The notes under the pieces: generated by a model
The model's database searches: none
What the model was told of the DNA's origin: nothing
What the model saw: only the letters and a program-made list of their open reading frames with translations
Origin: Adineta vaga
Lineage: Eukaryota; Animalia; Rotifera
NCBI GenBank assembly: GCA_021613535.1
Contig: CP075493.1
Coordinates: 10,205,179-10,269,178, forward strand
DNA: 64,000 nt
Direction of reading: 5' to 3'
Shown: positions 8,958 through 55,900 of the stretch, piece after piece
How positions within the stretch are numbered: position 1 is the stretch's first letter
Layout of the letters: every line of letters starts with the position of its first letter
Program-made: the position numbers and the translations under genes

Positions 8958-11900
8958 CTATCGTTCTTTCGTCCGTTTTATTGTCGAAGATTTTGACATT
9001 GAACAGATATCTTGTAATGTATTTCCATGATCAAGCAAATTAACAAGTATAGTAGATATTTGAGTTAGGTGTTCACAAAAACAACGATGCCGTTGACTAT
9101 TAGCCTACAAAAGGAAAAGAAATCAATTCATATAATATTTGTATTGTATCTTTTGTTTCTAAAAACTAAACACTATGTTTGAAAAACAACTATCATCTTC
9201 ATTTTAAAATCTGAATAAACAAGATTTTCATTTATCTTACTTCGATAAGATCTTCGACAGTCCTTCGTATTGATTGATCTTCAATATCTAATAATTGTGT
9301 TATATCAGACAATTGATTTTGTGTCATTTGTTCGTCTTGTGTCTAAAATGAACAAAAACACATTTATTACTATTTCTAAAAATCGCCTTTTTTTCTCCTT
9401 ACCAGATCGGATAGATATGTTGTTAATTGATCAATACGCCAGGTTGCCCACGGTTCAGTTAGTCGTTTTCGTATCGTCTCAATACTTTTGACCGGTACAG
9501 TTCTTTTTGGATCTAGGGAAAAATAAAATTTGAAGATCAAACAAAACAACATATTCAATGAAATTGTTTACTCGTTCGAATAATATCTGAATATTTTTCA
9601 TAATGATTGATTTTTGGTTTCCACGAAAAACGTGATACAAGTGTACTCATGGATTGCGGTCGAGTTTTTCCTCCAATCCAACGAATGCCAGTTCGTTTAT
9701 CATCATAAACAAAATCTACAGAAAAGAAAAACAAATTCAATGAATTTATTTCGAATGTAATTCTTCTTACCCTGTGATAATCGTCGAAGAAGTTCATCAT
9801 CGATTTGATTGATAAGTATATCTGTAGATGTTGTTTCTTGTTTAATATTTTCATTCGATACTAATTCAGGAGTTACTTTCGTAATTGCTCTTCGTTTTCG
9901 AGATAATAGAGCAGCATTGGCTGTTTCTGCTGAATTACGCTTTTTGGATATACCACTCGTATCAATACCGATGGATGATACTGGTGTCGTATTTTCAATA
10001 GAAAATTTTGATAATGGACGATTACGAGAATTGGAAAGCTTCTTTAAATTCGATGATGAATCAAACTGTTCATAATGAATTAGTTTCGACGGTGGCTCAC
10101 TAGATGATAGTGGATCACTGAGAGAAAAGAAGACAAGGAAAGATATAAAATGAAATAGAAGAAAATGATTTTAAAATTTACTCATCGATTAGTTTGTGCT
10201 TTTTCGGTTGTCGAATAGTTGTTGCTGTTGCTGATGATAGTGATGATGATGATGATGCTGGTAGAACAGTTGTTGATATTGGTGTTATTTGTTGAGTGGA
10301 TGGTTGTAAAGGAAGGCGTGTTCGATTTTTCGTTGACATTTTATTATGATGAACTAAAAATAGTAAGGTTTATTCAAAAAAGAAACGAACGAAAAGATTT
10401 AATTCATTTCTTACGATTTTTAATAATTGTTGAATCGTTAAGTTTTTCATCCGTTTGCATTTCACGAATAATTGGTGTTGTTATTGTAGTTGTTGTTGAT
10501 TGATGATTATTATTATGATCCATTGAACGTTGTGTAGTTGATATAAGTACAGATGGTGTTGAGGAAGAAGAGGTTGATGATGAATATAAATGGGTTGCTG
10601 GAAGTGTAAATTGAACTGGTTGTTGGGGAGAATTGATTGACTCGGAATTTGTTGATGAGGGTAACAATTGCATATGAAAATAAGTTTGATGACCAGAAGA
10701 ATCAAGATTTTTTGTCGTATATGAATGCGGATGTTGAACTTGAACATTCAAGGATGCTAGAGGATTTTCAGTTGTTGTCGGAGATGACAAACCAAAATGC
10801 ATACTTATTGGAAAAGAATCCGTTTTTTCACTTTTTACAGTTTGAACATGAGTGATATGTGGATGATGATGATGATGATGATGTTCAGAAGATGATATTG
10901 AAGTAGGAATCAATTGTACTGGTCGAGAAAGTACTTTAGCTAAATAAAAGAAATTATTCGTTTATTTAATTGAAGTTTTATTTGAATCATTTATTACAAA
11001 ATAAAACATTCTTTAAAGTAAGATTCACTTTTCTTCTTATCTACCCACAGTTTACTTTGTTGTTAAGTTGGATTTTTCTTTATACAAAGACCTGATAATA
11101 ACCACAACACACTAAAAGATCTAACAAATACAAACATTTCGTTCTAAACTGATCTTACAAATCGTTCTCGAACAGTAAGTTGTTCTTTAGAAGACTCCTA
11201 GCTACTAAATCGAAACGATCATTTTCATACATTCTTCCAGTAAAGATACGACGATTGGTGAATACAATGTTCAAGAAAAAGTCTGATTTTCATTACTTAA
11301 AATATTTTCAAAGACAATACCTGTTGGTAACATAGATGATGGTGGAATTGAAACTACAAAAGAAAAAGAAGAAATATGTAAGTTACTTTCCAGATCTATC
11401 TTTCTTTCAAACTTACAAATCTTCGTGGCTTGTGTTTGTTGTTGTGGTTGCCAAAAATTATTATTTGTATTTGATGCATTTGTATTTTGTTGAATGACTA
11501 ATTTTGGTGTAATATTATTTGTAACATTCGTTGATGATGATGATGCAGATACTGACGATGAATTCGAATTTGTAATCAATGGTTGTACAAGTGTAACACG
11601 ATTTTTCGATAGAAAAACGGATTGATTTGTATTGCTTGAACAGGATTTATCTGTTCCCATTGTTGACATATCATTTGTAGATGAGATTGTCACACTATTT
11701 AATGTCTGAATTTTTGGTGATGTTGTTCCAGGTGGAATTAATGTTACTAATGATGACGATGATGTTGAATTTGAAGGAATTTGTTGTTTATTTACTGTTG
11801 TTGTACTGCTCTGTTGTGGATTTAATATATATGTTTTAGCTGTTGAAAAACCTCCATTCATGGATGATTTATCCGTCAATTGGAACTGTAAATTTGTTGG

Positions 11901-38816: not shown

Positions 38817-39456
38817 TGTTGTCCTGTTGTGCTTTTGAATAATGTCTTTAGATAAGAATCCTACCTCAGTTAACTTAGTTTGAGGTTATCTAAAACAAGA
38901 TATCATATAAATGTCAATAAATCCAGTAATGTTATACTGAATAACAGATAAAGATAGAAAGTCAGATCATACAGGCGGAAGTAGAAGACTGCTGCTATAA
39001 AAAGATTTGAATCAAAACGTCAGTGAACTATGATCTATATACTATCATTTAGTAAGTATAGCGCCATCTGACGGTAAGTTGATAAAATAAGTTCCGTATA
39101 ACTATGGTGAACCATCTTCTTTTATGTATAATATTGTGTAAAAAAAGTTATTTCTATCGGAAAACGATGATGTGTTCTACTATATTCTAATCACATAAAT
39201 ATATAAAAATAAAAATAAAAATATTAAATAGTTATAGCCTTCGTACAAGCTGACGTTTTATTCAAAAGCAAGAATGAAAACCAATCGATGATAAACATAA
39301 AACTTCATACAGAAAACATCAAGCATTAATACAAATAACAAGAAGACACATTAAAGCAAGAATTAGATTTGAATAATTTTATGAATATGTAATGTGACTA
39401 AACTTTTATTTTTGATTTTAACTAGAGTAACATACGAAAATACGTATATTATACCT

Positions 39457-41767
39457 TTGTCATTTTTTTTCCTCCTTTCTCGTTTGTACTAGTTGTATTC
39501 TTATATCCATAGCTGGTGTTTTAGGTAACAATACCATCCGTTCACGTTGATCCGTTTCTTCCTCGCGTTCTCTCATACTGCAACAAAAAAACAAATATAT
39601 CCGACATTTCGTTTCTCTTCTTACCTTCGTAATATGATCAAACATACACCAGATAACACTAACATCAACACACAGAACATAAATATTATGGACAAACTAA
39701 AATGCTAGAGATGAAAAGAATAAAATAAAATAAAATAAAATATGTGATATTGTTGATGAATCTTACCCATATGATGATACTAAACATGAAAACAAATCGT
39801 GGAATACGAAAATAGTTCATAAGAGTTGCTCGAACTACGAAAAGATCAGAGAATGAGTGAAATGACATATTTTAATGTTGTATTACCTGAATCAGGGAGA
39901 TATTGACTTCGTAATAGACTGATGGATGGCAAATAAATACCAACACATAGTTCAAACAAACATAAACCAATAAATACCAGTATTTGAGCCTAGAAAGTTT
40001 TCGATTTATATAAAAAACGAATCATCAAGTATATTTATTCGGCACAACTTTCAACTTCGAAAGCAAGGATGACTATTTCACAGATATTATTAATTTCTGT
40101 AACAACTCCTTTATCTCAATATTTATTAAACTAAGACGATAGTTTTCTTCTTCATTTCTCTTTTGTATCGAAATTTAAGATTCAATAAAAACTGAATATA
40201 CTAACATTTGGTAAAATCACAGGTATACTCAGCGCAACAGCAGCCAATAGAATTACCACTCTACAGAGTCAAAAATAATATTTTAAATCAGAAGCAGAAA
40301 TCATAGACATACAACTTACGGCAGATAATAATGAACATCATATCGTTTTGATAGTTCTTTGAAAGCAAATGCACCCATCATGTTAAATGTCTATTGTATA
40401 TCCATGAATAATCATACACATACAGATCACTTCATACAAAACGACATTCTTACCATAAATCCAGAAAACATGAAACCTAGCGGTAAAGGATCAGAAATAG
40501 CCCACACTTTGGCTGCTTCAAGTGCAGGTGTCCATTCGATCGAATAAATATAAATCGTTGCTTCAAAAAGACCAGTAATCAAACCAACTAACACCACACG
40601 AGGCTCTAAATATATCAATGTATTTAGTCATCATCTGTGTTTTCCCAAACTACATTCGATATGGGAATACACTGACCATCACGAAGTATGTTAAAAGCAG
40701 TAATGAATGATGTCATTGGTTTTGCTTCTCGATCACCATAGTTTTCTGTCCACATCCACAATGTAAACAATATCATCACTATATAAACACCAATGGCAAT
40801 GTCAAATGGTGCTCTACAAGATAGATATTGATGTGAAAGCATGAGATGATGAGAGAAGTGAATATTTCGAGTCACTTCCGATTGATATCTAGTCACACTT
40901 ACGCATATCCAAGTGATTCTGCTGTAAACTGAGCGATGATACCTGATGTAACTGCTGCTAATGTCGCACACACAACTATAAATGAGAAACAGATATAGAT
41001 ACATCGTATCTAAAATGATAATATGACTTACAAGCATTGCGTAGTAGATGTTTGAGTGATTCAGTGTCCAAACCATGCTAAGAAAAAAGACAAGATCAAT
41101 TGCAAATTCATTCGATTCAATATGAAAATAATACTTTGTGATATTCTTGTAACAGCCACACTTCGAAGTTTGTATTATAGAATGAGTGACCGATGCCACG
41201 AAACATACTTCCAATAATGAGGATCGATAGAATGTTGAAATTCTTTAAAAAAATAGACGCGATGTAACTAAAATGCGTATGGAAGTAATATGATGATGAT
41301 ACTGACAAGTGAAAGGCAATGAATCGCATAGAAGAGAGATGATAGAATACATGCTAGTCGACGACCACTAAATCCAAAAGAAGAAAGCATTGATAATATC
41401 TATTTGGTGAATATTCGTACAAATAGTGAAGATGAAAATGCACTTACAATTTATCAGAAAGTGAAGATGCTACAGTACCAAGACATAGTGTAGAAAGATG
41501 TGCACAAAGATAAATGGATTCGATTGTTGACCGTTGAATATTGTATGAACTAAGGAGAGCATAACGATAAGATGCTTGAATATTGTTACCAGCTGAATAA
41601 AAGAGAAAAAGAATATAATTATAATATTTTAGACTGATTTTCGTGATGGAAATAAAGACGAATATACCTGCAGCAAGTCCATAGGCAATCAGATAGACTG
41701 CTTGAAGTTGTTGAAATACGGGTGAAGTTGAAGATGTATCAAATGAATGTTCAGAATCAATAGCCAT
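39457..41767 (-). CDS. MFSD5: MFSD5-like major-facilitator transporter (molybdate-anion transporter family), tandem copy A, multi-exon.
   Basis: N-terminal exon (ORF 41444-41767) MAIDSEHSFD...VFQQLQAVYLIAYGLAAGI...AGNNIQASYRYALLSSYNIQRSTIESIYLCAHLSTLCLGTVASSLSDKL matches human ...EGQIAILYVCGLASTVLFGLVASSLVDWLG. WTENYGDREAKPMTSF... (ORF 40624-41214) matches WGENYDRQRAFS. EPRVVLVGLITGLFEATIYIYSIEWTPALE... (ORF 40427-40618) matches DRRVLLLGTIQALFESVIFIFVFLWTPVLD. Terminal exon ends ...TDQRERMVLLPKTPAMDIRIQLVQTRKEEKK* at 39457. Confidence 0.75.
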
Positions 41768-44700
41768 ACTATTTTGTAATATAATTGCTCCTATGTTAAG
41801 CTAGAAAAGTTATGTATGATCGTGCGTGACGGATTATTTCGTTGTTTTATATGGACGTATGTTTCGATTTGACAACCCTATTTACCATATAGTAGTGACC
41901 GTTCGATTTGGGTAGACAAATATCTATGGATTCATATGAACGAACAAAAATTGTTACGAGGACAAAGTAGAGTGGGTCATTCAATATACTTTTGTTCTAC
42001 TAATGTATTTGTATAAGTTACAATGTTCATGCAGAGAATGATGGACTCTAAGGATTTATTGCATTTAAAATCAATAACACTGTGTTTTAAACAAAGTACT
42101 TTGAGGAAAAAATTGTGACAACGGAGCTATTTCTCAACAACAAGAAGTAAGCGAGAGGAATACGAGCTAGAAACTCTTTTTGAAAATGTCATATAGCTTT
42201 TTGTCTCCTCCCACTCAAATATAAGTAAGATGAAAAAAATAAAGAATACTTCGTCCAAGAACATATTCGAAAGAACGATTCTTTTCAGGAATAAATCCAG
42301 TAAAAATCTCAGTTGCAAACATTTCTCATTTAATACTTTATTTAATCTACAATTCATATGCACGCGATCTTCGCACATATTAGTGAACTCATCACGTTCT
42401 TTCGCCTTCACTACCTGTAATACTTTTCCTTTATATCGTATATTGTAGTACTAAAATGCCATCTTTTTCCTAGAACTATAGGCAAGTTAGTATTCAAGGA
42501 AATGAAATCATTGCTCATTATATATTTTCAGACATTCGTTTTACTTACATGTCATATATGTATTTTTTTCAATCGATTCTTTTCTTTCAAGATTACAAAA
42601 CTGTACGTGTATGGCAGTAACTTATAAAAAGATCAATAACAGTGACTGTGTTCATAAAAAGTCTTTGTAGCGTATCCTTTCCTTCAAAAGATAAGATTTC
42701 TTCTTGTCTATATTTCAGACACATCAATGTATTTTTAGGTTATCTTTTTCAACAGATAAATGTACTTATAGCTGATTGCTCTCTTACTGACATACAGATT
42801 CTCACTTAAACACAAATTAAGTGTCAATTTTTTTCTTTGCATTAACACACTATCACGACAAACAAACAACGTTTTTCCATTTCTTCTATTGTTCATTGAG
42901 AATATTGATTGATACACTGCGATGATCAATTCCATTCCATAGTCCTCTCATTTGTGGTAGTTTTAGTTTTATACCTACAGATGGTGATGTAGACAACAAT
43001 ACCATCCGTTCACGTTGATCCGTTTCTTCCTCGCGTTCTCTCATACTGCAACAAAAAAACAAATATATCCGACATTTCGTTTCTCTTCTTACCTTCGTAA
43101 TATGATCAAACATACACCAGATAACACTAACATCAACACACAGAACATAAATATTATGGACAAACTAAAATGCTAGAGATGAAAAGAATAAAATCAAATA
43201 TGTGATATTGTTGATGAATCTTACCCATATGATGATACTAAACATGAAAACAAATCGTGGAATACGAAAATAGTTCATAAGAGTTGCTCGAACTACGAAA
43301 AGATCAGAGAATGAGTGAAATGACATATTTTAATGTTGTATTACCTGAATCAGGGAGATATTGACTTCGTAATAGACTGATGGATGGTTCATAAACTCCA
43401 ACACAAAATTCAAATAAAAAAATACCAAAAAGAACCAATGATTGAACCTGAAAATTAGTGTATTATAAAGATAAAAAGCATTCAGTGAAATACTGACGTT
43501 AGAAAACATTGCTGTCATTGAAACTGCGACTACGCCGAGCATGATTATCACTCTGAAAATTATCATCATACTAACACTATGATAGATCTCAGTTATAGAA
43601 CTTACAGCATATATGAATGAACATCATATCGTTTTGATAGTTCTTTGAAAGCAAATGCACCCATCATGTTAAATGTCTATTGTATATCCATAAATAATCA
43701 TACACACACAGATCACTTCATACAAAACGATATTCTTACCATAAATCCAGAAAACATGAAACCTAGCGGTAAAGGATCAGAAATAGCCCACACTTTTGCT
43801 GCTTCAAGTGCAGGTGTCCATTCGATCGAATAAATATAAATCGTTGCTTCAAAAAGACCAGTAATCAAACCAACTAACACCACACGAGGCTCTAAACATA
43901 TCAATGTATTTAGTCATCATCTGTTTTTTCCCAAACTACGTTCGATATGGGAATACACTGACCATCACGAAGTATGTTAAAAGCAGTAATGAATGATGTC
44001 ATTGGTTTTGCTTCTCGATCACCATAGTTTTCTGTCCACATCCACAATGTAAACAATATCATCACTATATAAACACCAATGGCAATGTCAAATGGTGCTC
44101 TACAAGATAGATATTGATGTGAAAGCATGAGATGATGAGAGAAGTGAATATTTCGAGTCACTTCTGATTGATATCTAGTCACACTTACGCGTATCCAAGT
44201 GATTCTGCTGTAAACTGAGCGATGATACCTGATGTAACTGCTGCTAATGTCGCACACACAACTATGAATGAGAAATAGATATAGATACATCGTATCTAAA
44301 ATGATAATATGACTTACAAGCATTGCGTAGTAGATGTTTGAGTGATTCAGTGTCCAAACCATGCTAAGAAACAAGACAAGCAATTGCAAATTCATTCGAT
44401 TCAATATGAAAATAATACTTTGTGATGTTCTTGTAAGATCCAAGCCTCAAAGTTTGTGTTGTAGAGTGAATGAGCCATACCACGAAATATGCTTCCAATA
44501 ATGAGGATCGATAGAATGTTGAAATTCTTTAAAAAGAATAGACAACACGTAGTTAAAATGTGAATGAGATATATATGATGATAATGATACTGACAAGTGA
44601 TAGACAATGAATGACATAGAAGAGAGATGATAGAATGCATGCGAATCGACGTCCACTGAAAAGAATTAGAGCAGTAGATTGATTTTCTTGAAATATTATG

Positions 44701-45060
44701 GCAATTCTGTCGAAACAAATACTGTTGAATAGAGACTTACAATGTATCCGATAGTGATGATATCACGGTACCAAGGCATAAAGTCGAAAGATGTGCACAA
44801 AGATAAATGGATTCGATTGTAGATCGTTGAAGATTATAGGAATGAAGGAGAGCATATCGATAAGGACCTTGAAGATTGTTGCCGACTAAAGAATTAATTG
44901 AGAAATGTATAAAAACTTGTTCTTTTATTCATTTGAAAAATATACCTGCAGCAAGTGTGTAAACAAGCAAATAGTTGGTTTGCAGTTCTTTGAATACGAA
45001 TGGATTGGAAAAGGATGTATATAATAAACCATTCATATTGTTAGGCAAAATAGTTTTCAT
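39460..45060 (-). repeat. Tandem segmental duplication of about 3.4 kb (copy offset 3426 bp) covering the two MFSD5-like genes. Blocks of near-100% nucleotide identity, including introns, alternate with divergent blocks.
   Basis: 39481-39895 matches 42907-43375 (identical apart from an (ATAAA)n length difference). 40300-41300 matches 43590-44520, giving near-identical ORFs. Intervening segments (about 39900-40290 versus 43380-43585) and the 5' exons are divergent. Confidence 0.85.
42883..45059 (-). CDS. MFSD5: MFSD5-like major-facilitator transporter, tandem copy B. The 3' two-thirds is nearly identical to copy A, introns included; the N-terminal exons diverge.
   Basis: ORFs 43910-44443, 43713-43904 and 42886-43113 are near-identical to ORFs 40624-41214, 40427-40618 and 39460-39645. 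N-terminal exon MKTILPNNMNGLLYTSFSNPFVFKELQTNYLLVYTLAAG at about 44945-45059 differs from copy A. Confidence 0.7.
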
Positions 45061-45582
45061 TGTACTAAATTGTACAGAAATGAAGATAACGTATATTTGT
45101 AAAATGTAAATAATTCTTTTATTTCTACGTATACTGATGTATTGATCGATCCTAAAATGAATAGACTACTTGTTCATTTGCCAGCATCCAAAGTAATAAT
45201 GATTGCATGTGTGAGTTAATTATCGTATTCTTTGATCCTACGATACGTGAATTTCTGACATATAGTTTTTTTTCAAATAGACGAATGATAAATGAACTCG
45301 ATGCATGCAAAACTTCCACATTTTGAGTGTTTTTCTTAATACAAAGAATCTCTTAATCAAAACGTGTAGGTCAAACAATAGAATAAATTTCTAAGTAATA
45401 CAAAGCAAATTGGATTAATTTCAATTACTCAATTCTATTCTTAGAAGAAATCTATGTTGAAGATGCCGTGTACAACAGTGAATAAAAATCATCATCGTTC
45501 GATTCGATTTGTACAAATTGTTTATTAAATAGTTCTTCAAGATTATCGAAAAAATAAAAAGAATTTGAAACTGAGCTAATTA

Positions 45583-46116
45583 TTATGTGTATGAATAGTG
45601 AGTTCGTTTGATTCGTTTATGATTCTTATTGATACCTTCAGATGGATCGTCATTCTTATCAATTATGACTTCAATTGACTTACCATTGTTGCCAAGAAAG
45701 TATTTTATTCTTTTCTTATTCAACCATTTGATTGTATCCAATATTGAATTTGGCAAAGAATTATTGTGATGAAATGTAATCGTCTGTACATGTTTGATAT
45801 ATTTGAGAATCAATTTGACTTGATGAATGTCAATTGTGTGAATTTTAAGATGACGAATACGACGATAAGATACTATCGAACAGATGATTGGAATTCTCTC
45901 GTCGAAATCATCAATAATTGTTAATGTAAGTGTTTGAATATGGAATGCTTTCTCTAATAATTCTCTGATTGTTTCCGAACGAATGATAGATCCATAGTGT
46001 TCGATTAGCGAGATTTCATCTAATTGAGAAAGATTTATTAATGTAGATAGACGAATAATTAAATCATCTGCACATTCATCATTGATGTACAAAATAAGTT
46101 TATTAATATTTTCCAA
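45583..46116 (-). CDS. LRR-like protein fragment: a paralogous partial copy of the adjacent F-box/LRR gene, or a 3' exon. It lacks an ATG start, so it may be a pseudogene or part of a larger transcript.
   Basis: ORF 45583-46116 is L/I-rich with LxxLxL periodicity (LSQLDEISLIEHYGSIIRSETIRELLEKAFHIQTLTLTIID...HLKIHTIDIHQVKLILKYIKHVQTITF). An upstream in-frame stop lies immediately 5'; the first residue is TTG-encoded. Confidence 0.35.
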   Translation of the reverse strand: MENINKLILYINDECADDLIIRLSTLINLSQLDEISLIEHYGSIIRSETIRELLEKAFHIQTLTLTIIDDFDERIPIICSIVSYRRIRHLKIHTIDIHQVKLILKYIKHVQTITFHHNNSLPNSILDTIKWLNKKRIKYFLGNNGKSIEVIIDKNDDPSEGINKNHKRIKRTHYSYT

Positions 46117-46239
46117 AGAACACTGACGACCAAGTCTATTCTAGAAGAGAAACAAAAATACTAATAAATTTTTGACTGTGTCATAAAAACTAGAGTATTA
46201 TTATTTCTACTCAAATTATAATTTAAAAAGTCTTGGAAG

Positions 46240-47415
46240 TTAAGAAATGGTGTCACTTACATTCTTTAGTGATGCAGAACTGATGCGTAAAGTCCACTCT
46301 TGCTTTGTTCTTGATATGTTATTACTTCTTATCGTCGTTGCCCAATATGCGATAGTTCCAGTAGAACGGTTTTCAAGAAACATCTCAGTTGAAAATATTG
46401 GTGAGTGAAGAGTGATGCTTGCAGAATAAATAGATTCCATATATCTAGCAGTAACAAACCATTGTTTCTTGTCGAGCCAAAATGCTGTACAAAATGGAAC
46501 GAGAATTGATTCCATGTTTACGTTCTTCTCACTTGAATAAACAAAATAGAAATAGAATGTTTTAAGTAATGGTAGTTTTTCACCGATGAAATATTCCCAT
46601 AGAAGAAATCGTTGAACAAAATCAGATGAAACTAATGAATTCGTTTGGAATTTGAGATAAATAAGAGATGAAAAAAGTGATAAGAAAGATTCGAATACCT
46701 CAATTGCTTCAGGAATCGCATTGAGTGTTAATGAAGTCAATTGATAATATGGAATTCCTTGATCAATGGATATATTCCATTCATTCATCGCAAAAACCCG
46801 CAGATTTGTTGACTGACCAAGAATATGAGATAATTGTTCATTAGTACATGTTTTAATTCTTAATTCATAAATTTTCCATTGAATGGGCCATGTTATTCGA
46901 TTCATGATTGTATTTTCAACATCAAAAGTTAATTTTCGAAGACTTGGCATAGCAATGACGGAGGACAGAAGTTCGATCGTATCATTACCAAGTAATTTTC
47001 TCTCCTTGATTCTGAATGAAAATGACTTGATAGTATTCATCATAATGAGAGGATTAATAATTATATGCAAATCAAATTCATCGATACCACAAAGTGTCAA
47101 TGATCGAAGTTGGTTTAATTCATAAATAAAGACAGATCGTAAGAAGATTCCAATCATATTTACTTTATAAGATGTATTTTTCAGAGAAAGCGAACTAACA
47201 TTGTTGGTTTGCAAAGCTCGACATAATCGAGAAATAGTTGTTTTAGATGATTCAGATGTAAATTTAATTGATAAACGATTATAACTATCAACAATTGTAT
47301 AAAATCGTTTGCATACTGAACGAACTGAAAGTAGAATAAGTTCAGTATCAAGTTGATCAAGAATACGATGAACAAGTTCTACAGGTAATGTTAGAAAAGT
47401 TGCTGTCGATTCCAT
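46240..47415 (-). CDS. F-box protein with leucine-rich-repeat-like body (lineage-specific F-box/LRR family), single ORF of 391 aa.
   Basis: N-terminal F-box LPVELVHRILDQLDTELILLSVRSVCKRFYTIVDSYNR, followed by repeated L-rich segments (LRSLTLCGIDEFDLHIIINPL..., LRKLTFDVENTIMNRI..., LTSLTLNAIPEAIEVFESFLSLFSSLIYLKF). Confidence 0.7.
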   Translation of the reverse strand: MESTATFLTLPVELVHRILDQLDTELILLSVRSVCKRFYTIVDSYNRLSIKFTSESSKTTISRLCRALQTNNVSSLSLKNTSYKVNMIGIFLRSVFIYELNQLRSLTLCGIDEFDLHIIINPLIMMNTIKSFSFRIKERKLLGNDTIELLSSVIAMPSLRKLTFDVENTIMNRITWPIQWKIYELRIKTCTNEQLSHILGQSTNLRVFAMNEWNISIDQGIPYYQLTSLTLNAIPEAIEVFESFLSLFSSLIYLKFQTNSLVSSDFVQRFLLWEYFIGEKLPLLKTFYFYFVYSSEKNVNMESILVPFCTAFWLDKKQWFVTARYMESIYSASITLHSPIFSTEMFLENRSTGTIAYWATTIRSNNISRTKQEWTLRISSASLKNVSDTIS

Positions 47416-47890
47416 AAGTATCTTTACAATAGAATTTTTATTTTATTTGATGGAGAAAAAAAAAGAAACTATTTCGTAAGACAGTTGAAATAAAACACAT
47501 GTGTAATTTCTTTTGATATAAGTAGAAAAATAGAATAATATATGAGTCATTCTACCGTAAGTTACACAAACACACATAACGACTATGATGAAATTTAATA
47601 AAGATCGAAATAACAAATATATTCTTCTTTTTTTTTCCTAAAAGAAATATTATGCAAAATACAGATTATTTAAACTTTTAATAAACAGTGATTCTTAAAG
47701 AAGATATAGGTCAATCATTCATCAACATAAACAAAAAATATTGAGAGATCAATTATAGCAATTATCTATTGACAACCAAATGATATTAGTGTGACATGTT
47801 TATTCATTTATTTTTGTTTATATAACATATACAATGACAGAGAAGAAAAAAAAGAAGTCGGACGGAATAAAACATATAAATGTCTCGTCA

Positions 47891-50835
47891 TTAAACGGTT
47901 GTTACTGCTTGTTTCATTAATTTAACATTACTTAAATCTTCGAGATTGTCATCATCATCATCATCTATATCTGTTAAATTTGATATTCGTGTTTTTTCTT
48001 TTCGTAAATAATCTTTCGTTTTGATTATAAAGAAAATCAATAGAAAACCGATACATAAAGATAATAGTATTAAAATAAAAATCATCGAAATTAAAATATA
48101 ATGTTGTCGAAGAAATGGAAATGATATTAAATAAGAATCATTTACTGATGTCGATTGAGAACAATTTGAAGAAAATTGATCAAGATTTGAAAATGGTTGA
48201 CAATGTATATAATCATCACATACCAATGAATGATGAATACAAAATGATGTTTCATTTGATGGTTCACAATCAATATAATCTGTAGAACATTTATGATCAA
48301 TTTTCATTTGAATGATTGTCCATGTTAAATGAAAACCTTTCAATGATTCTTTTGTTTGACGATTTAATGAAATAAATTGTAATGTAAACCAATTTGATTT
48401 TGTAAATATATATGAAATCACTTCTTGTTGTCCACATAATTCATCAATACGTTCTTCACTTGAGATTCTTAAAACGGATGATTGACATCCTTGAGGAGGA
48501 TCTTTTGTTTGTGAACCTTCCATATCAAGAATAGTTAAATCAAGTTTAAATTGGTATCCAATTCTTGTACGATAGGACCATTCACAAATAATATTTTCGG
48601 GATAACCATGACTTGATAAATTTCCTGATAATTGTTCATTTTCATTTATATCAATAATTGGATCGAATGGATTTCGACATTTCGATGAAAAGAATGAATG
48701 TGTTCGATTAATAAATTCATATCGTCCATCGAAACCTAAGCCTGTTTCTGTATCATTATTTGAACGAAAATGTATACGAAATTGTTCGATTGAACGATTT
48801 GTTAAATAGGGTGATGGATAATTTCTATATCCACAATAAACGTAGGGATAAGATAAATAGGATAATGAAGAATATAAACGATATGTATAAGTTAAATTAT
48901 CGGATGGACAATGAAGAACATCATTATCAGCAATATTAAAATAATCATACCAGATAAGAAGACGAGAATTTGGATTAAGAATATTAAAATGAAATGTACA
49001 ATTTGAATTGGAAAAATAATCTTGATCCGATGACCGTGGTGGTTCAAATTTTCCTTTTTGAAGAAAAAATAAACAATTAAAACATGAATTATTCTCTCCT
49101 TTTCTTACCATTTAATGCCCGTGATTGATAATAGTAAAGACTACAATCCGTTCGATTAGTTGGATCAGTTGATATTTGATGATAACTTCTAATAAATTTA
49201 TATTTTGCTTGAAATTTTCCTCCATGAATCAATGATGGTAATAGATGACTTGTTTGACGATGATTCGGAATAAAAGATAATTTTAACAATGCATTCTGTG
49301 AAAGAAAACGTCCTTCAGGTTTAAAATGTCCACAAAATGTAAGATTATCTTTAAAATCAACTGCTTGTTGATAATAATTATTAAATGTCGAATTTATCAA
49401 TGAATGAGATTTTGATGAATGTAATTGATAATCATAGATTCGACTAGCATTATAGATAACAAAGATTGCTAATTGACAATCGACATCAAATTGTTCAAAT
49501 TCAATTTCAACATTTTCTAAACCATAACGATCATCAACACCTAATAAATAGGTTGAACAAGATGTTTGTGGTTTATAAAAATTTGGCCAATTCGGTGATT
49601 GAATTAATCCATAACCTTGACCAAAAGATTTGATTGTTTGATCACATTCTGTTCCTGATATATATTGATTCGATTGATTTCTTGTAATAAAATCTAATTT
49701 TGTTAATGTCGAAAGAAATTCATATTCAGCATAGAAACCTTTACGCCATAATAATGGTATTGATGCTTCATTTGATTGTATTTGTTCGTCATCAGTCAAC
49801 TCTGCATAATGTGTGGTAATGAAATATAGTAATAACGAATTCTTTGTTGAATAAACATCTAATGGCATTGAATATGTTCCGCAAAGATCTGTTATATGAT
49901 GAGGATCGATTTGTTCGGATAAAATTTCATCATCAAATTGATTGACTTGCTTAAAACCTGAGAGAAATCGTTGCAATTCAATTGAATGAAATGTATTATC
50001 ATATATACGAATTAGATCTATGGCACAATGTTGAGTATTTGGTGTTTTAAATAACATTAAATCACGAAAACGTATATGAATACGTTCATTTGATTGACCA
50101 ATAAATGAATAATTACAAAATTGCCACTAGAAACAAAAGAGAAAAACGATATTAATTGTTCAAACCTTTCTTTTTACCGGTGGATATGTTCCAGGATAGG
50201 TAGATGAAAAGAATTCTCCACGTTTTGATATCGATGAATTAAAAATATAATCACATGGTTCATGTATAAGATTGTCTTTATATCGTTGTGTAGGTATAAA
50301 ACGAAATGAACCATTAAAACCTCTTTCAGTTTTTGTATCTTCAGTAAAGAATCCTAATAAAAGTAGATTTGTCACGGATATCAATAATGGTGGTTTATTT
50401 CGTCCACAAAAACGATGAAGTAACTGATCATTGACTTGATTAAAATCTGTTAGATTAATAAATACATCGAGATAATCATGAGTACACTGAGGTGAAACAC
50501 CACGAATTTGAAAAAAGTCAATTTCAATAACAACACGATAATCTTTGGAAGCTGTAAATTGATAAAATAAAATTGTATCTTGTGGATAATTATTAGGAAA
50601 ATTAGGACCTGAAAAAAACAAAACAAGAATTACTGCAATCGAAAAAAAACAGAAGAAAATTTTTATTTAATCTACTTGAAAAAACACCACCATCCGATCC
50701 ATATTGAGACATATTGAAACTAAGATATTGTGTTTCAACAGTCTCCAATGATTTATATGATGAATCTTCTTGACATTCGATATACCATTTAAATAATATC
50801 AAATAAATGTATAGAAAAATAAATAAGAAATTCAT
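47891..50835 (-). CDS. Type I membrane protein with signal peptide, about 4 CUB domains, one LDL-receptor class A module, a TM helix and an acidic cytoplasmic tail (Neto / LEV-10-like auxiliary-subunit architecture).
   Basis: Signal peptide MNFLFIFLYIYLILF (ORF 50602-50835). CUB 1 GPNFPNNYPQDTILFYQF...YRVVIEIDFFQI...CTHDYLDVF...FCGRNKPP...GFNGSFRF (ORF 50160-50621). CUB 2 GTECDQTIKSFGQGYGLIQSPNWPNFYKPQTSCSTYLLGVDD...CGHFKPEG (ORF 49089-50057). Further CUB-like modules and LDLa-like CSTDYIDCEPSNETSFCIHHSLVCDDYIHCQ, then TM ILISMIFILILLSLCIGFLLIFFII and tail ...DIDDDDDDNLEDLSNVKLMKQAVTTV* (ORF 47891-49111). The 23-nt frame overlap between the two large ORFs implies a short intron. Confidence 0.7.
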
Positions 50836-51723
50836 GATGAAATTTGATTAAAAATAATAAGATACATTTTGACGACATAGTTGCCGTCATTGATAAATGA
50901 AAAACATTCAATATATCATAGAAATCTGGATTATCAATACATAGATACGTATGGACGAATAAAATCTACAATGAAGACAATACCCTTCATGAATTGATTG
51001 ATGTCGTAAAGAGTTTTGTGCTACTAATCATCTCTACGTCTGTCTTTTCTTTCTAATGATATTCCTTGGATAGAATGTTTAGATATATTATACAAAGCAT
51101 AGATAATTTGTACGATTGACTGTGTTTTATATAAACTAGAGGGAGAGAGCGAAAGAAGCTGGATGAAAATCACCTTAATGTGCTATCGACAGTCGTCAAT
51201 ATATGTTTCGCATTATATGAATATGGAAAGAAAAAGAAGGAGATGAAGTCTTTTCAAAGAATCATTTCTTTTTTTTTCGATAAGATAGGATTGTTGAAAA
51301 GAGATGCATCAGATGGAAGTTATCATCTGTTTTTTTGACATTGAATTAAGATGAAATGTCGTCGATTGTCCTTAATCAAGACTACTGATTCTTATCAATA
51401 AGTAATTATAAAATATCAGTAAATATCATGAAAAAAAGAAACTTTTCTGATACATAATTATCTCAAGATCGATGATTGATTAGTTGAAATATTTCGATAA
51501 TGTATCATCAGACAGACAACCTATTCTGTTCTTTTGTATACGTACTTACTGTCAGTTCTCACTTTGTTCATACATAAAATGATTGTGTATATTGTATACT
51601 GTCTATCATATCATATTTAGTTCAACTTTACTCGATATATTGAGTGATATGTATGTATATAGAGAACTTGACGTTATTGTTTTTCTTCTTCTTCTTCATC
51701 AAATGTTGTATGATTGGTTAAGT

Positions 51724-51746
51724 TAATATATATATATATATATATA
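51724..51746. repeat. (TA)n microsatellite in the intergenic region between the CUB receptor and PLD.
   Basis: atatatatatatatatatatata at 51724-51746. Confidence 0.85.
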
Positions 51747-52902
51747 ATGTTCAGATGATATACTTACCTCAAGAGACAGACGAACACATGAGATATGAAT
51801 TGTGTGATTTTTGTAAGTGACACTAAAACGTTAGATTGTTATTTCAATACGATCGAGTTTTACATAACTCTTTTTAATGAAAAATTTGACTGGCTTTTTT
51901 TTGTTTAAAAAAAACATTGATCAATATGCATCATTGAGTACTTTGTTATTCATTGTGACATAGAAATCATTATCAAAAAAAAATATCTGATTGTTATAAT
52001 GATCGAGTGTTGATATAAATATCATGTTTAGTGTAACTAATGTATAGTGAGTCGATATTCTATGGTTGAATGAATGAAATACCCGCTAGTATACACGTAT
52101 CGAAATCGATGTTTTGCTACTGGCTGAAAAATATTAGGAAAAAAGAGAATGAAATCATTCGAATAATCGCTTTGATCTTTTTCACGTCTGATAATCATAC
52201 TTTTCATTCATTAGTAGACTAAATCATATTCGATGAAGAATTGTTTTTCAATTCTAAACACAACACTTCTGTTAATGATATGATATGAAATCAATTTTTT
52301 TGTTTTGGAAAAAGAAGCAATACGTAATGATTGAAAAAAGATTGAATATAGATCTTTAAAACGATTGTAAAAGGAAACTCTCTCATAGTGACATCTGATT
52401 AGACAACGCTCATTCGTCAACTTGAATACGATGGATCAGAATCATAAAAAAAAAGAATTTTATGTTCTGTGTTTTGCAACTAGAAACGAGAAAAGAAGGA
52501 GAAGAAAAAATCTAACTTTCAGTTTCTTGTTATTATCCTTGAATACCATGTGTTTACTTGACGATCGAGATATTTCTAATTTTTTTCTATTGTAACACGA
52601 TTATTATCGCAGATCAAATGATTCATTAGAAAGTCAATGTTCTAATCTTTATATTTATCCGTATCGATTAAATTAGTATATGACATTTCTTTTCATAATC
52701 TTTGTAGTAACGTATTACTAAGAATTCGATGAATTGAATAATATTTGTTTTTTTTCTACCTTCTTCTAAAAAGACACTTATAATGAAAATAAGCATTTTA
52801 TTCATTTGATTATTTTTAAAGGTCATGAGAATATCTGTTGATATACAAGAAATTTTCCTTTGTCAACTACTGTTAATCTCACGTTAATATTTCTCGTTTT
52901 AG

Positions 52903-55900
52903 ATGGCACGCCATGATGATTCAGGCGGTGTTAGTGCATTAGTTCGGCACACAGCTGGCATGGCTGAATTAGCAATTAATGCAGGCCATCCTGATCGTAA
53001 ACATAATGAATATTTACCATATCCTGATAATAATTTCAATGATCCTGTTGACGAACGCTTTCAAAGAGGTTTGGTTGTTCTTTTTATTAAAAAAATTTGC
53101 ATACTATGTGATTGTTTAGCGGATAAATTTACTGTTGCACATGTATTTGATCGTAGTGGACGCACATTTGTTCCCAATGTACCTGTTCATGTTAAATCGA
53201 TTGTTGCTGAACGTACCTACGCAGGTTTTACTGAATTTCTCAATCCATATTTGTTCGTATCAATAAATTCTACAAATCTCATTGATTATATGAAATATTT
53301 TTCGTTCTTAGATATTGTGTTACCACAAAACATGGTCCATTTGAATGGACGATTTACAAACGTTATCGAAATTTTAATGATTTACATAAAGCTTTAGTTC
53401 AATTTGTTGAAGCTGAAACTAAACACTCAATCAGTGATTTAGAAAAGTAAGTATTGACATAAGAAAATTGAACATAAGAAATACTGAAGAAGAATTGATT
53501 GAATAAATAATATATTTACTAACTTAATTAATATAGATCAGCGAGGCGAAATGAACCTGTAAGATTTCTTTCGCAACGATCGTAAGTTTATCTGTTCTAT
53601 TTTGTGTATAATAATTGTTGTAAAGAATCTGTTATTTATTGAATTCAAAGAAAAAATGTTCTTCTTCTTTTTAATTAGAGTGCAAGAAGAAGAAAATGAA
53701 AATCCATGTTTTCCGACACGAAATGATCGAATGGCTTTTATTAATGATAGTATCGTTCGAGAACGTTGCGTACGTTTTATTTTTCCTAAGCAAGTGCATG
53801 ACTCATATTTCCTTTTTTCTTTATAGCAAATTCTTCTTGAATATTTAAATAAAATTCTTAAACATCCAAAATTTCGTAATCATCCTGCTACAGTAAGTTT
53901 ATCGATTACTTTCTTTACTATCGTTTGATTATTCGATTTATTTGTAGCGTGAATTTTTCGATGTTAGTTGTGTTTCGTTTGTCTATGGTTTATCTAGCAG
54001 TATTAAAGAAGGTTATTTATTAAAACGTTCACATGATGATTATCGTGGACATAGTATTTTCTTTCGTTTACCATTCTTTTGTGATTTTTGTAAATTTCAT
54101 CATGGTCGAAAGTATGTCTTTCAAAACTAAACATACCAAAATCTTCACTTGTTTTCTTTCATTTAGATGGTTTATTATTAAAGATTCGTATATAACTTAT
54201 ATGCGTCCAGACACTTATGAAGTGCGTTTTCCAATGTTAGTAGATCGTGCATTTGATATTCAGACGGGCTTTCGTCATGCTCGAACACCACATGGTATAA
54301 AAATTACTAATCTACAACGGTCATTAGTTTTAAAATGTCGTAATAAACGAGATTGTGAAGAATGGACACAACATTTATTAAATTTAAAAGAACAAGCGAA
54401 AAGTTTTGTTAGTTCACAAGCAAGTCGTTTTAATTCATTTGCACCTATTCGACGAAAACAATTAGCTCATTGGTATTTTATTTAAGAAAATAATTTAGAT
54501 GATGAAATTATTTCTTTTTTCTAGGTTTATCAATGGTAAATCATATATGGAATCTGTAGCTAAAGCGCTTCTAACAGCTAGAGAAGAAGTATTTATTACG
54601 GATTGGTGGTTATCACCAGAAATCATGATGATGAGACCGACTGATGATGAATCATTTCGATTAGATAATTTATTGGGAAAAATAGCGGTAAGAGATTGAT
54701 TTAAATGATGAGATTTGAATATTCTGTATATGTTTCTTTTTAAGGATGATGGTATACGTGTTTATGTATTAGTTTTTAAAGAAATGTCATTTGCAATGGG
54801 TTTAAATAGTTTACATACGAAACGAGCTTTGATCGGAAAGAGTAAAAAGGGATTTATTAAAGTAAGACGATATGAAATTCAAAAGAACATATTTGATACT
54901 TGGGTTTTTCAAGGTTATTCGTCATCCTGATCATTACCCAAGTGGTGGTGTTTTTCTCTGGTCTCATCATGAAAAACTAGTGATTATTGATCAGAAAATT
55001 GCATTCGTAGGCGGAATTGATTTATGTTTCGGTCGTTGGGATGATGATTTTATGCGGTAAATAAATTTCCTCTAGGAATAGAAGAGAAGAAAAACAAGCT
55101 TAAACTGATTCAATTATATAACTAACATTCATGATTTAATGATCTAAGAGACCATATCACAATTAATTAAAATAAAGAGATTTTTAAATATGTTTTAGTC
55201 TTGTGGATTTGGGTGAAGAAAATGAAACGAAATTAAAGATGCCAGCGGAAATTGAAGCTGATAAACAAGCAGCAGGTGGCAAAGAAACAGTTGAAGCAGC
55301 AGAAATGGTAACAACTGAAATGGCTGAAAATGCTGGTGAAAGTCCTGCAAAGGTAACGAGAAGAATTCCGAATCCGAGCAAGAATATTCAAAAGTATAGT
55401 CAGTATCTCGTAAGTGTAAAAGAGAAGAAGAAGAACTGAAACGATCTTAACTAACGAACTATTAAAACAAACCGAAACTTGCATCTTCAATTTACTTCTT
55501 TATTTGTATGAGACAAAAAAAACGAGAGAGTGTGATGTATATTTAGGGTTCTGATCAAATGAGAACAACTGTAACTCCACCAAATAAAGGAAGTGACGAT
55601 GTAAAACCAGGTGAACAAACACATGCAAGTGGATCTGGTCATCATATGAAAACTGCTGCGAAAAAATGTAATTAGTTTATTTTTCTATTTTTCTATTTTT
55701 ACAATTTTTTCGTTTGCTTTTTTCTTCATAGGGATTGAATCTAAATTGTCAGGTAAGACTGAATCTTCTTTATCTCACTATATAAATACAAAAACAGGAG
55801 TGTTTCTTTCAAAACTAATCTCAAACTAAAATCTTGAGAAAACTATCTTATTTAGTTAATAGTCATTCGAATACTGTCTATCCCGAAGAAATTAATCGTA

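What the first reader, a model, noticed from the sequence alone, without database searches (positions are those of the whole stretch)
39457..45060. Tandem MFSD5-like transporter duplicates with mosaic near-identical blocks (probable gene conversion)
Two MFSD5-family (molybdate-anion transporter-like) genes sit head-to-tail, 3426 bp apart, on the minus strand. Their 3' two-thirds are essentially identical at the nucleotide level, and this includes introns and the 3' flank: 39481-39895 versus 42907-43375, and 40300-41300 versus 43590-44520. Short internal segments and the 5' exons are strongly divergent. Copy A begins MAIDSEHSFD..VFQQLQAVYLIAYGLAAG; copy B begins MKTILPNN..FKELQTNYLLVYTLAAG. Identity that extends through introns but is interrupted by divergent tracts is the signature of ongoing gene conversion between old paralogues, not of a single recent duplication. 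It points to paralogues with distinct N-terminal, possibly substrate- or targeting-related, regions but homogenised cores.
Basis: seen in the sequence. Interest (0 to 1): 0.7.

Follow-up and report, generated by a model that had tools for sequence, protein, structure and literature searches.

The report
Gene conversion between tandem transporter paralogues
Two neighbouring MFSD5-type transporter genes of the bdelloid rotifer Adineta vaga are old duplicates that have recently copied about half of their sequence, introns included, onto one another; this is a clean but ordinary example of interlocus gene conversion.

Summary
The window is Adineta vaga (AV20 assembly). Two intact 14-exon MFS_5 genes lie head-to-tail on the minus strand: B at 45060-42886 and A at 41767-39460. 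Their alignment is a mosaic:
- Block 1 (A 41142-40330 / B 44426-43616): 811 nt, 98.5% identical.
- Block 2 (A 39929-39527 / B 43387-42995): 393 nt, 99.7% identical.
- A 51-nt perfect mini-tract.
All three run through introns. They are separated by tracts of 57-75% identity.

The longest identical run is 224 nt, against a maximum of 113 in 10,000 permutations.

The syntenic A. ricciae locus carries B-type and A-type copies in the same order. Exon 10 plus the 5' part of exon 11 groups by type across species (1000/1000 bootstraps, Ks 1.3). The near-identical blocks group by species (1000/1000, Ks 0-0.02). A. ricciae shows independent tracts elsewhere in the genes.

Corrections: the 3' flank and C-terminal tails are not shared. 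The strongest conversion-resistant island is TM9-TM10, not only the N-terminus.

This is a well-known phenomenon and a new instance of it. Read-level support could not be checked.

The parts
42886..45060 (-). Copy B: MFS_5 (MFSD5-like) transporter gene, 14 exons, 457 aa. It is I4U23_003291 / UJR16388.1.
   Evidence: My spliced model is identical to the NCBI protein P0001. Pfam PF05631 at E=4.9e-68. The AF2 model has 12 TM helices, pLDDT 82, and an MFS fold by Foldseek.
39460..41767 (-). Copy A: MFS_5 transporter gene, 14 exons, 438 aa. Its locus, I4U23_003290 / UJR16387.1, is annotated as an aberrant 286-aa product.
   Evidence: Intact ORF with 13 GT-AG introns. Pfam PF05631 at E=4.4e-68. Exon lengths match B and the three A. 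ricciae copies. The annotated P0008 skips exon 3 and ends after exon 10.
40330..41142 (-). Conversion block 1, copy A side: 3' end of exon 4 to exon 9, including introns 4-8. Partner in B is 43616-44426.
   Evidence: 811 ungapped columns with 12 differences, 98.5% identity. Ks 0.019, Ka 0. Groups by species in 1000/1000 bootstraps.
43616..44426 (-). Conversion block 1, copy B side.
39527..39929 (-). Conversion block 2, copy A side: 3' part of exon 11 to the first 51 nt of exon 14, including introns 11-13. Partner in B is 42995-43387.
   Evidence: 393 columns with 1 difference, plus a 10-nt microsatellite indel in intron 12. Ks 0. Groups by species in 1000/1000 bootstraps.
42995..43387 (-). Conversion block 2, copy B side.
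41208..41258 (-). 51-nt perfectly identical mini-tract across the intron 3/exon 4 junction. Partner in B is 44492-44543. It sits inside a zone of 74-75% identity.
   Evidence: a run of 51 or more in 2 of 20,000 permutations.
39930..40329 (-). Non-converted island, copy A: 3' end of exon 9, intron 9, exon 10, the 216-nt intron 10 and the first ~60 nt of exon 11. It encodes TM9 and about two-thirds of TM10. Partner in B is 43388-43615, where intron 10 is only 50 nt.
   Evidence: 62% identity overall and exon 10 at 51%. Ks 1.34, Ka 0.39. Groups by paralogue type with A. ricciae in 1000/1000 bootstraps. Helix map.
43388..43615 (-). Non-converted island, copy B side.
41143..41592 (-). Moderately divergent 5' zone of copy A, exons 2-4 (81-87% in exons). 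Partner in B is 44427-44885. Exons 3-4 probably record an older conversion. Exon 2 still carries the type signal.
   Evidence: Exons 3-4: Ks 0.55, against 1.3-1.7 for orthologues, and species grouping 1000/1000. Exon 2: type grouping about 910/1000.
39460..39526 (-). Copy-specific C-terminal tail of A (last 22 codons plus stop). B's tail is 42886-42994. The 3' flanks are unrelated.
   Evidence: 57% identity in the tail. The 300 nt downstream align at 65%, which is the baseline. Protein alignment.
41768..42885 (.). Intergenic spacer between B's stop and A's start. It is not part of the repeat.
   Evidence: The 300 nt upstream of A and of B align at 65.8%, the same as unrelated flanks. No repeat family covers it.

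Best explanation
Two positional paralogues of an MFS_5 (MFSD5-like) transporter arose by tandem duplication before A. vaga and A. ricciae diverged. They have since been partly homogenised by interlocus (non-allelic) gene conversion.

Inferred mechanism: a break in one copy was repaired by homologous recombination, of the synthesis-dependent strand-annealing type. The template was the paralogue about 3.3 kb away on the same or the sister chromatid. That overwrote several hundred bases of exons and introns without exchanging the flanks.

At least two recent tracts exist. Block 1 is at least 811 bp and about 1.5% diverged. Block 2 is at least 393 bp and about 0.25% diverged. There is also a 51-bp tract, and an older event over exons 3-4 (Ks about 0.55).

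The tracts stop at a highly divergent island made of exon 10, intron 10 and the 5' part of exon 11. There the copies differ by a 166-nt intron-length heterology and about 40-50% of exonic bases. Both species keep type-specific sequence there under purifying selection.

Shown: the mosaic, its significance, the age of the duplication, the phylogenetic switch, and the intactness of both genes. Inferred: the repair pathway, the number of events, why the island persists, and the direction of transfer.
For: 1. Mosaic identity that runs through introns. The longest identical run is 224 nt, against a permuted maximum of 113 (0 of 10,000).
2. The flanks, 5' exons, island and tails sit at or near the 65% baseline seen for unrelated sequence aligned the same way.
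3. The collinear A. ricciae locus holds B-type then A-type copies. The type-specific intron-10 length is shared across species: 216, 355 and 562 nt in A-type, 50-51 nt in B-type.
4. Segment-wise quartet bootstraps switch. The island groups by type 1000/1000 and exon 2 about 910/1000. Blocks 1 and 2 and exons 3-4 group by species 1000/1000.
5. Ks is 0.019 and 0 in the blocks, 1.34 in the island and 1.1-1.9 between orthologues. The same blocks are only about 72-78% identical between species in exons, and at baseline in introns. So the identity is not conservation.
6. The residual differences inside the blocks look like real post-conversion mutations under selection. There are 2 in 719 exonic sites, both synonymous, against 9 in 378 intronic sites (Fisher p=0.0017). 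Nine of the 11 are transitions.
7. A. ricciae shows independent tracts at other positions: L001 3301-3736 vs 6390-6825 at 96%, 3301-3664 vs 10346-10709 at 97%, and 6113-6741 vs 10100-10697 at 98%, against about 63% elsewhere.
8. There is no third copy in the window and no other close A. vaga paralogue in two protein searches.
9. Gene conversion is already documented as pervasive in A. vaga, and loss of Rad52, BRCA2 and MMR genes has been proposed to permit conversion between divergent sequences (PMC6264785). Block-1 divergence of 1.5% is close to the median homologue divergence of 1.4% (PMC5916493).
Against: - No reads, second haplotype or population data could be examined. Assembly or polishing effects are therefore excluded by argument only.
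- The direction of transfer is unresolved. In the blocks the A. vaga sequence is equidistant from A-type and B-type A. ricciae copies (p-distance 0.27 to all three).
- The difference in age between blocks 1 and 2 is not significant (12/811 vs 1/393, Fisher p=0.07). One discontinuous event cannot be ruled out.
- The species grouping of exons 3-4 is partly driven by homogenisation in A. ricciae.
- L001 could be the ohnologous rather than the orthologous region. That would only make the duplication older.
- Expression of copy A is unverified, and its public annotation is truncated.
Confidence: 0.88

Rival explanations
1. The mosaic is an assembly or polishing artefact. Either haplotypes were duplicated in tandem, or short-read polishing homogenised two real paralogues across mis-mapped reads.
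For: No read-level check was possible. The exact copy-A protein is absent from the protein collection, and the locus could not be retrieved from independent assemblies. Block 2 is 100% identical apart from one microsatellite indel.
Against: - A haplotype duplication would be uniformly about 98-99% identical, flanks included. Here the flanks, exon 1, the island and the tails are at 51-75%.
- Both copies have type-specific orthologues in the same order in A. ricciae.
- Polishing cannot turn hundreds of bases at about 75% identity into identity.
- The residual differences are intron-biased, silent and mostly transitions, as expected for real mutations.
- Independently assembled A. ricciae shows the same kind of mosaic, at 96-98% identity and therefore not collapsed.
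Confidence: 0.04
2. A recent tandem duplication produced two near-identical copies. The divergent patches (exon 1-4 zone, island, tail) were later imported into one copy from a third, diverged paralogue, or arose through unequal crossing-over in a formerly larger array.
For: A. ricciae has three copies where A. vaga has two, so array size has changed. Unequal exchange does produce chimeric genes.
Against: - Both AvA and AvB carry type-specific sequence in the island and N-terminus, and a type-specific intron-10 length, that match the positionally equivalent A. ricciae genes. Both lineages are therefore old at this locus.
- No third copy lies in the window and no other close A. vaga paralogue was found.
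- A single unequal crossover gives one switch point. It does not give two internal identical blocks flanked by divergence on both sides in both genes.
- This rival would itself require gene conversion.
Confidence: 0.05
3. A single duplication was followed by ordinary divergence. The identical blocks reflect extreme purifying selection.
For: The blocks encode conserved TM5-TM8 and TM10-TM12 of the transporter.
Against: - Eight introns are 95-100% identical between the copies.
- Ks in the blocks is 0-0.02, against 0.55-1.3 elsewhere in the same genes.
- The same segments are only about 70-78% identical between species in exons, and at baseline in introns.
- Permutation rejects uniform divergence (0 of 10,000).
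Confidence: 0.01

Closest known systems
Interlocus (ectopic) gene conversion between tandem paralogues. Examples: Caenorhabditis paralogues (PMC3966223) and 'mosaic divergence' of tandem HMA4 copies in Arabidopsis halleri (bioRxiv 10.1101/2025.10.29.685298). From my own knowledge, also the classic globin, opsin and RHD/RHCE cases.
   Same: Closely spaced, same-orientation paralogues. Tracts of hundreds of bases of near-identity that ignore exon/intron boundaries. Sharp boundaries against old divergence. Gene trees that switch between 'by species' and 'by paralogue' along the gene. Islands that escape homogenisation.
   Different: Nothing in kind. The host is a bdelloid rotifer, where attention has gone to conversion between homologues rather than between tandem paralogues. 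Independent tracts in the same array are seen in a second species.
Allelic (homologue) gene conversion in Adineta vaga, as summarised in PMC6264785 and PMC5916493.
   Same: Same organism and presumably the same recombinational repair machinery. The youngest tracts here (0.25-1.5% divergence) are of the same order as the median homologue divergence of 1.4%.
   Different: Donor and recipient here are non-allelic genes 3.3 kb apart on one chromosome. Outside the tracts they are 25-50% diverged, not about 1.4%.
MFSD5 / MOT2-type 'molybdate-anion transporter' family (Pfam MFS_5, PF05631).
   Same: 230-bit Pfam match over about 300 residues. 12-TM MFS fold. Invariant family residues are conserved in the alignment.
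   Different: Only about 30-38% identical to non-bdelloid members. This is a lineage-specific Adineta expansion. The substrate is unknown, and the TM10 position that is aromatic in non-bdelloid homologues is Glu, Leu, Met, Gln or Arg here. No molybdate-transport evidence exists for these proteins.

Membership tests
Pfam MFS_5 (PF05631; MFSD5/MOT2-like) | Whole-protein score above the Pfam gathering threshold (25 bits). | tested here: met
   A scores 230.2 bits (E=4.4e-68) and B 230.1 bits (E=4.9e-68). MFS_1 is also matched.
Pfam MFS_5 (PF05631; MFSD5/MOT2-like) | 12-transmembrane-helix major-facilitator fold. | tested here: met
   The AF2 model of B has pLDDT 81.9 and pTM 0.77, with 12 long helices. 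Top Foldseek PDB hits are MdfA, FLVCR1/2 and SLC19, with target TM-scores of 0.72-0.79 and probability 1.00. No PDB relative was found by sequence.
Pfam MFS_5 (PF05631; MFSD5/MOT2-like) | Molybdate (anion) transport activity. | not testable with these tools
   The name comes from algal MOT2 and human MFSD5 studies (papers listed). Nothing here bears on the substrate.
Interlocus gene conversion between paralogues | The paralogues are older than the identical tracts, meaning the duplication predates a speciation that the tracts postdate. | tested here: met
   A-type and B-type copies sit in the same order at the collinear A. ricciae locus. The island groups by type in 1000/1000 bootstraps.
Interlocus gene conversion between paralogues | Phylogenetic incongruence between adjacent segments of the same genes. 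| tested here: met
   Species grouping in 1000/1000 bootstraps in blocks 1 and 2, against type grouping in 1000/1000 in the island.
Interlocus gene conversion between paralogues | Identity extends over silent sites and introns, and is significantly clustered. | tested here: met
   Introns 4-8 and 11-13 are 95-100% identical. Ks is 0-0.019. The run-length permutation gave 0 of 10,000.
Interlocus gene conversion between paralogues | The flanks are not exchanged (non-reciprocal, no crossover product). | tested here: met
   Each tract is bounded on both sides by copy-specific sequence, and gene order and flanks match A. ricciae. Non-reciprocity in the strict sense cannot be observed from one haplotype.
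Interlocus gene conversion between paralogues | Identifiable donor and recipient (direction). | tested here: inconclusive
   In the blocks, A. vaga is equidistant from all A. ricciae copies. The only hint is weak: GC3 of A is 0.215 outside the blocks, while it is 0.289 in the blocks and 0.283 in B outside the blocks.
Interlocus gene conversion between paralogues | The assembled sequence is supported by reads spanning both copies. | not testable with these tools
   No read data are available. The exact-protein look-ups returned no independent contigs.

The most novel reading that the evidence does not exclude
The island that resists conversion (TM9 plus most of TM10) may be actively maintained by selection because it carries the functional difference between the two transporter types. 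The difference includes a buried Glu in B-type TM10 (residue 341) where A-type has Leu or Met and non-bdelloid homologues have an aromatic residue. Both Adineta species keep the island while repeatedly homogenising the rest of the array. If so, this locus would be a natural 'conversion versus diversifying function' experiment in an ancient asexual. Permissive bdelloid break repair may also make such interlocus conversion unusually frequent genome-wide.
Probability: 0.25. Interest if true: 0.45.

Novelty: new member of a known kind. Interest (0 to 1): 0.3.

Why it matters
This is a well-resolved case of concerted evolution in a bdelloid rotifer, a group in which gene conversion is central to debates about how ancient asexuals purge or retain variation. 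It shows that recombinational repair in A. vaga also acts between non-allelic tandem genes. It did so several times, and within roughly the time needed to accumulate homologue-level divergence.

It has three practical consequences:
1. Duplicate ages estimated from whole-gene Ks in bdelloid genomes will be wrong for such pairs. Here Ks ranges from 0 to 1.3 within one gene pair.
2. The public annotation of copy A (286 aa) should be replaced by a 438-aa, 14-exon model.
3. The conserved non-converted island points to TM9-TM10, and to one charged residue, as candidate specificity determinants in an uncharacterised transporter expansion.

None of this changes current understanding of gene conversion.

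Tried and rejected
- **Third copy or other repeats in the window:** tblastn and self-BLAST found none.
- **Independent contigs for the A. vaga genes:** the exact-protein look-up for P0001 returned nothing. The full-length copy-A protein is not in the collection. So there is no independent assembly or transcript evidence.
- **A functional element in the long A-type intron 10 (snoRNA or similar):** Rfam gave no hits at E up to 1 over 39000-45500. The three A-type introns share no sequence. Rejected; only the length is type-specific.
- **Direction of conversion from distances to A. ricciae types:** uninformative, about 0.27 to all. The GC3 hint is weak.
- **GC-biased conversion signature:** introns are 0.29-0.30 GC inside the tracts and 0.26-0.27 outside, too small and too few sites to interpret.
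- **Separate ages for blocks 1 and 2:** Fisher p=0.07, not significant.
- **Dating the duplication with A. steineri:** the syntenic slot has one MFS_5 gene plus a partial copy about 7 kb downstream. Its sequence mixes A-like and B-like motifs. Left unresolved.
- **PDB sequence search for a characterised relative:** none.
- **Uniform old duplication and conservation-only explanations:** rejected, see the rival explanations.

Full report
**Source and gene models.** The window is about 30% G+C. Its best protein matches are Adineta vaga locus tags I4U23_003290/003291 on an 18.1-Mb chromosome. The sequence is therefore the AV20 chromosome-level assembly of this bdelloid rotifer. By hand-splicing guided by the A/B alignment, I obtained two intact genes on the minus strand. 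Each has 14 exons and 13 canonical GT-AG introns of 47-216 nt. Copy B runs 45060-42886 (457 aa) and copy A runs 41767-39460 (438 aa). The B model is residue-for-residue identical to the NCBI protein UJR16388.1, which validates the approach. The public model for A (UJR16387.1, 286 aa) skips exon 3, uses an internal donor in exon 4 and ends after exon 10. My 438-aa model is collinear with B and with the annotated A. ricciae orthologues. Both proteins match Pfam MFS_5 (PF05631) at 230 bits. An AlphaFold model of B (pLDDT 82, pTM 0.77) has 12 TM helices. It superposes on MdfA, FLVCR and SLC19 structures with target TM-scores of 0.72-0.79.

**The observation.** Repeat finding, BLASTN and a global alignment all show the duplication. 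Scoring by segment gives:
- The 300 nt upstream and downstream align at 65-66%. This is the baseline for unrelated AT-rich sequence with these alignment settings.
- Exon 1 is 71% identical, and exons 2-4 are 81-87%, with introns 1-3 at 74-80%.
- Intron 4 to exon 9 is 94-100%.
- Intron 9 is 64% and exon 10 is 51%. Intron 10 is 216 nt in A and 50 nt in B. Exon 11 is 83% overall, with its first ~60 nt divergent.
- Intron 11 to intron 13 is 98-100%.
- Exon 14 is identical for only its first 51 nt.

A two-state HMM on 1948 ungapped columns gives the tract coordinates listed under 'parts'. The longest identical run is 224 nt. In 10,000 permutations of the 230 differences the mean maximum was 47 and the largest 113. 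A 51-nt perfect tract inside the 75% zone is itself unlikely (2 of 20,000).

The 3' flank and C-terminal tails are not shared. The B coordinates of the 3' block were mis-registered. About 55% of the gene is near-identical, not two-thirds.

**Old paralogues or young duplicates?** A. ricciae proteins fall into two types. The contig carrying P0002 (locus L001) has three tandem MFS_5 genes flanked by a CUB-domain gene on one side. On the other side lie GlcNAc-2-epimerase, Cox11, RPL13e, anoctamin, DGCR6 and a POU gene. tblastx shows the same genes in the same order in the window. For example, the epimerase at window 38828-37593 is 90% identical over 412 aa. L002 is the same locus in a second assembly.

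A spliced DNA aligner that I wrote recovered 14-exon models for Ar1, Ar2 and Ar3, with the same lengths for exons 2-13 as in A. vaga. That gives a gap-free 1099-nt alignment.
- Ar1, next to CUB like AvB, has the B-type N-terminus (YLLVYTLAAVGNNLQGPY), a B-type exon 10 and a 51-nt intron 10.
- Ar2 and Ar3, on the epimerase side like AvA, have A-type sequence and long introns 10 of 355 and 562 nt.

Quartet bootstraps per segment:

| Segment | Grouping | Support |
|---|---|---|
| Exon 10 + exon 11a | by type | 1000/1000 |
| Exon 2 | by type | ~910/1000 |
| Exons 3-4 | by species | 1000/1000 |
| Block 1 | by species | 1000/1000 |
| Block 2 | by species | 1000/1000 |

Nei-Gojobori Ks between AvA and AvB:

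| Segment | Ks |
|---|---|
| Exon 2 | 0.67 |
| Exons 3-4 | 0.55 |
| Block 1 | 0.019 (2 synonymous, 0 non-synonymous changes) |
| Island | 1.34 (Ka 0.39) |
| Block 2 | 0 |

Orthologue Ks is 1.1-1.9 throughout. In the blocks the A. vaga genes are only about 72-78% identical to any A. ricciae copy in exons, and at baseline in introns. The identity is therefore not conservation. This is the classical signature of interlocus gene conversion superimposed on an old duplication.

**Are both copies real and functional?** The 11 substitutions inside the equal-length parts of the blocks are 2 in 719 exonic sites, both synonymous, and 9 in 378 intronic sites (Fisher p=0.0017). Nine are transitions. That is what mutation plus purifying selection on both copies predicts after conversion. 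It is not what assembly noise predicts. Block 1 (1.5%) is about as diverged as A. vaga homologues (median 1.4%, mean Ks 0.05; PMC5916493). Block 2 is younger or was converted again, although the difference is not significant (p=0.07). Exons 3-4 are less diverged than orthologues and close to the mean ohnologue Ks of 0.61. This points to a much older event.

**Recurrence in a second species.** A. ricciae has its own tracts at different positions:
- Ar1/Ar2: L001 3301-3736 vs 6390-6825, 96.1%.
- Ar1/Ar3: 3301-3664 vs 10346-10709, 97.0%.
- Ar2/Ar3: 6113-6741 vs 10100-10697, 98.3%.

These cover intron 1 or exon 3 through intron 5, against about 63% identity elsewhere. Both species spare exon 10/11a.

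**The island.** On the AF2 helix map the island corresponds to TM9 (B residues 298-318) and about two-thirds of TM10 (323-351). Within each type it is under purifying selection across species. For AvA-Ar3, Ka is 0.098 and Ks 1.41. For AvB-Ar1, Ka is 0.19 and Ks 1.86. Between types Ka is 0.39-0.57. One difference is a charge. B-type has Glu341 (VYEPS) and A-type has Leu or Met. A. steineri copies have Gln or Leu, a more distant Adineta paralogue group has Arg, and non-bdelloid homologues have Trp, Phe or Tyr.

From general knowledge of the MFS fold, TM10 is one of the cavity-lining helices and TM9 is peripheral. The persistence of the island can be explained in two ways. The first is a recombination barrier: about 40-50% exonic mismatch plus a 166-nt intron heterology. 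The second is selection against conversions that erase a functional difference. The data do not separate the two.

**Mechanism (inferred).** The likely route is non-allelic homologous repair of a break using the paralogue 3.3 kb away, without crossover. Bdelloid literature already documents extensive conversion between homologues. [quoted passage not shown] Mosaic divergence of tandem paralogues through interlocus conversion is well described elsewhere (PMC3966223; bioRxiv 10.1101/2025.10.29.685298).

**Rivals.**
- A haplotype-duplication or polishing artefact is contradicted by the divergent flanks, the divergent island, the cross-species type orthology and the pattern of residual differences. 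It could not be tested with reads.
- A young duplication patched from a third paralogue is contradicted by positional and type orthology of both copies, and by the absence of any further close A. vaga paralogue.
- Conservation alone is refuted by intron and synonymous identity.

**Dead ends.**
- Intron 10 holds no conserved or Rfam-detectable element.
- The direction of conversion is unresolved.
- There is no GC-bias signal.
- A. steineri has one MFS_5 gene in the syntenic slot plus a partial copy downstream, which does not date the duplication cleanly.
- No solved structure is related by sequence.

**Verdict.** It is a textbook phenomenon in a new place: a new member of a known kind, of modest interest (0.3). 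It has some value for bdelloid genome biology, for duplicate dating and for annotation.

Noticed in passing
window 39460-41767 (-): The public annotation of copy A (I4U23_003290, UJR16387.1, 286 aa) skips exon 3, uses an internal donor in exon 4 and terminates after exon 10 in shifted frames. An intact 438-aa, 14-exon model exists, collinear with copy B and with A. ricciae P0002/P0003.
   Followed up: partly
L001 3301-3736 / 6390-6825 / 10346-10709; also 6113-6741 / 10100-10697: The three tandem MFS_5 genes of A. ricciae carry their own near-identical tracts (96-98%, introns included). These cover exon 3 to intron 5 in all three copies and intron 1 to exon 5 in Ar2/Ar3. They are independent of, and differently placed from, the A. 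vaga tracts.
   Followed up: yes
window 39990-40205 (A intron 10) vs 43448-43497 (B intron 10); L001 7498-7852 and 11482-12043: Intron 10 is long in all A-type copies (216, 355 and 562 nt) and 50-51 nt in B-type copies, in a genome whose introns are mostly about 50-90 nt. The long introns share no sequence and have no Rfam match.
   Followed up: yes
copy B residue 341 (codon in exon 11, about window 43395) and copy A residue 336: A TM10 position that is aromatic (W, F or Y) in non-bdelloid MFS_5 proteins has diversified in Adineta. It is Glu in B-type, Leu or Met in A-type, Gln or Leu in A. steineri, and Arg in a more distant Adineta paralogue group.
   Followed up: partly
window 39719-39742: An (AATAA)n / (TTATT)n microsatellite in intron 12 of copy A. 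Its 10-nt length difference from copy B is the only indel inside conversion block 2.
   Followed up: yes
L004 10001-12174 and 19446-20833 (A. steineri): The syntenic slot between the CUB gene and GlcNAc-2-epimerase holds one MFS_5 gene in A. steineri. A second, partial MFS_5 copy lies about 7 kb downstream, beyond Cox11. Other paralogues sit at unrelated loci such as L003. The array's history therefore differs between Adineta species.
   Followed up: partly
P0018, P0023 (A. steineri proteins, 747-791 aa): These are annotated as fusions of half an MFS_5 domain with NHL-repeat domains. They are probably merged gene models.
   Followed up: no
window about 45550-54860 (-): A large multi-CUB-domain gene lies upstream of copy B and is collinear with the A. 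ricciae CUB gene. The whole stretch 28.5-55 kb keeps gene order with A. ricciae contig CAJNOJ010000062.1.
   Followed up: partly
copy A CDS outside vs inside the conversion blocks: GC3 of copy A is 0.215 outside the blocks and 0.289 inside. Copy B is 0.283 outside. This is a weak compositional hint that B was the donor, with too few sites to rely on.
   Followed up: partly
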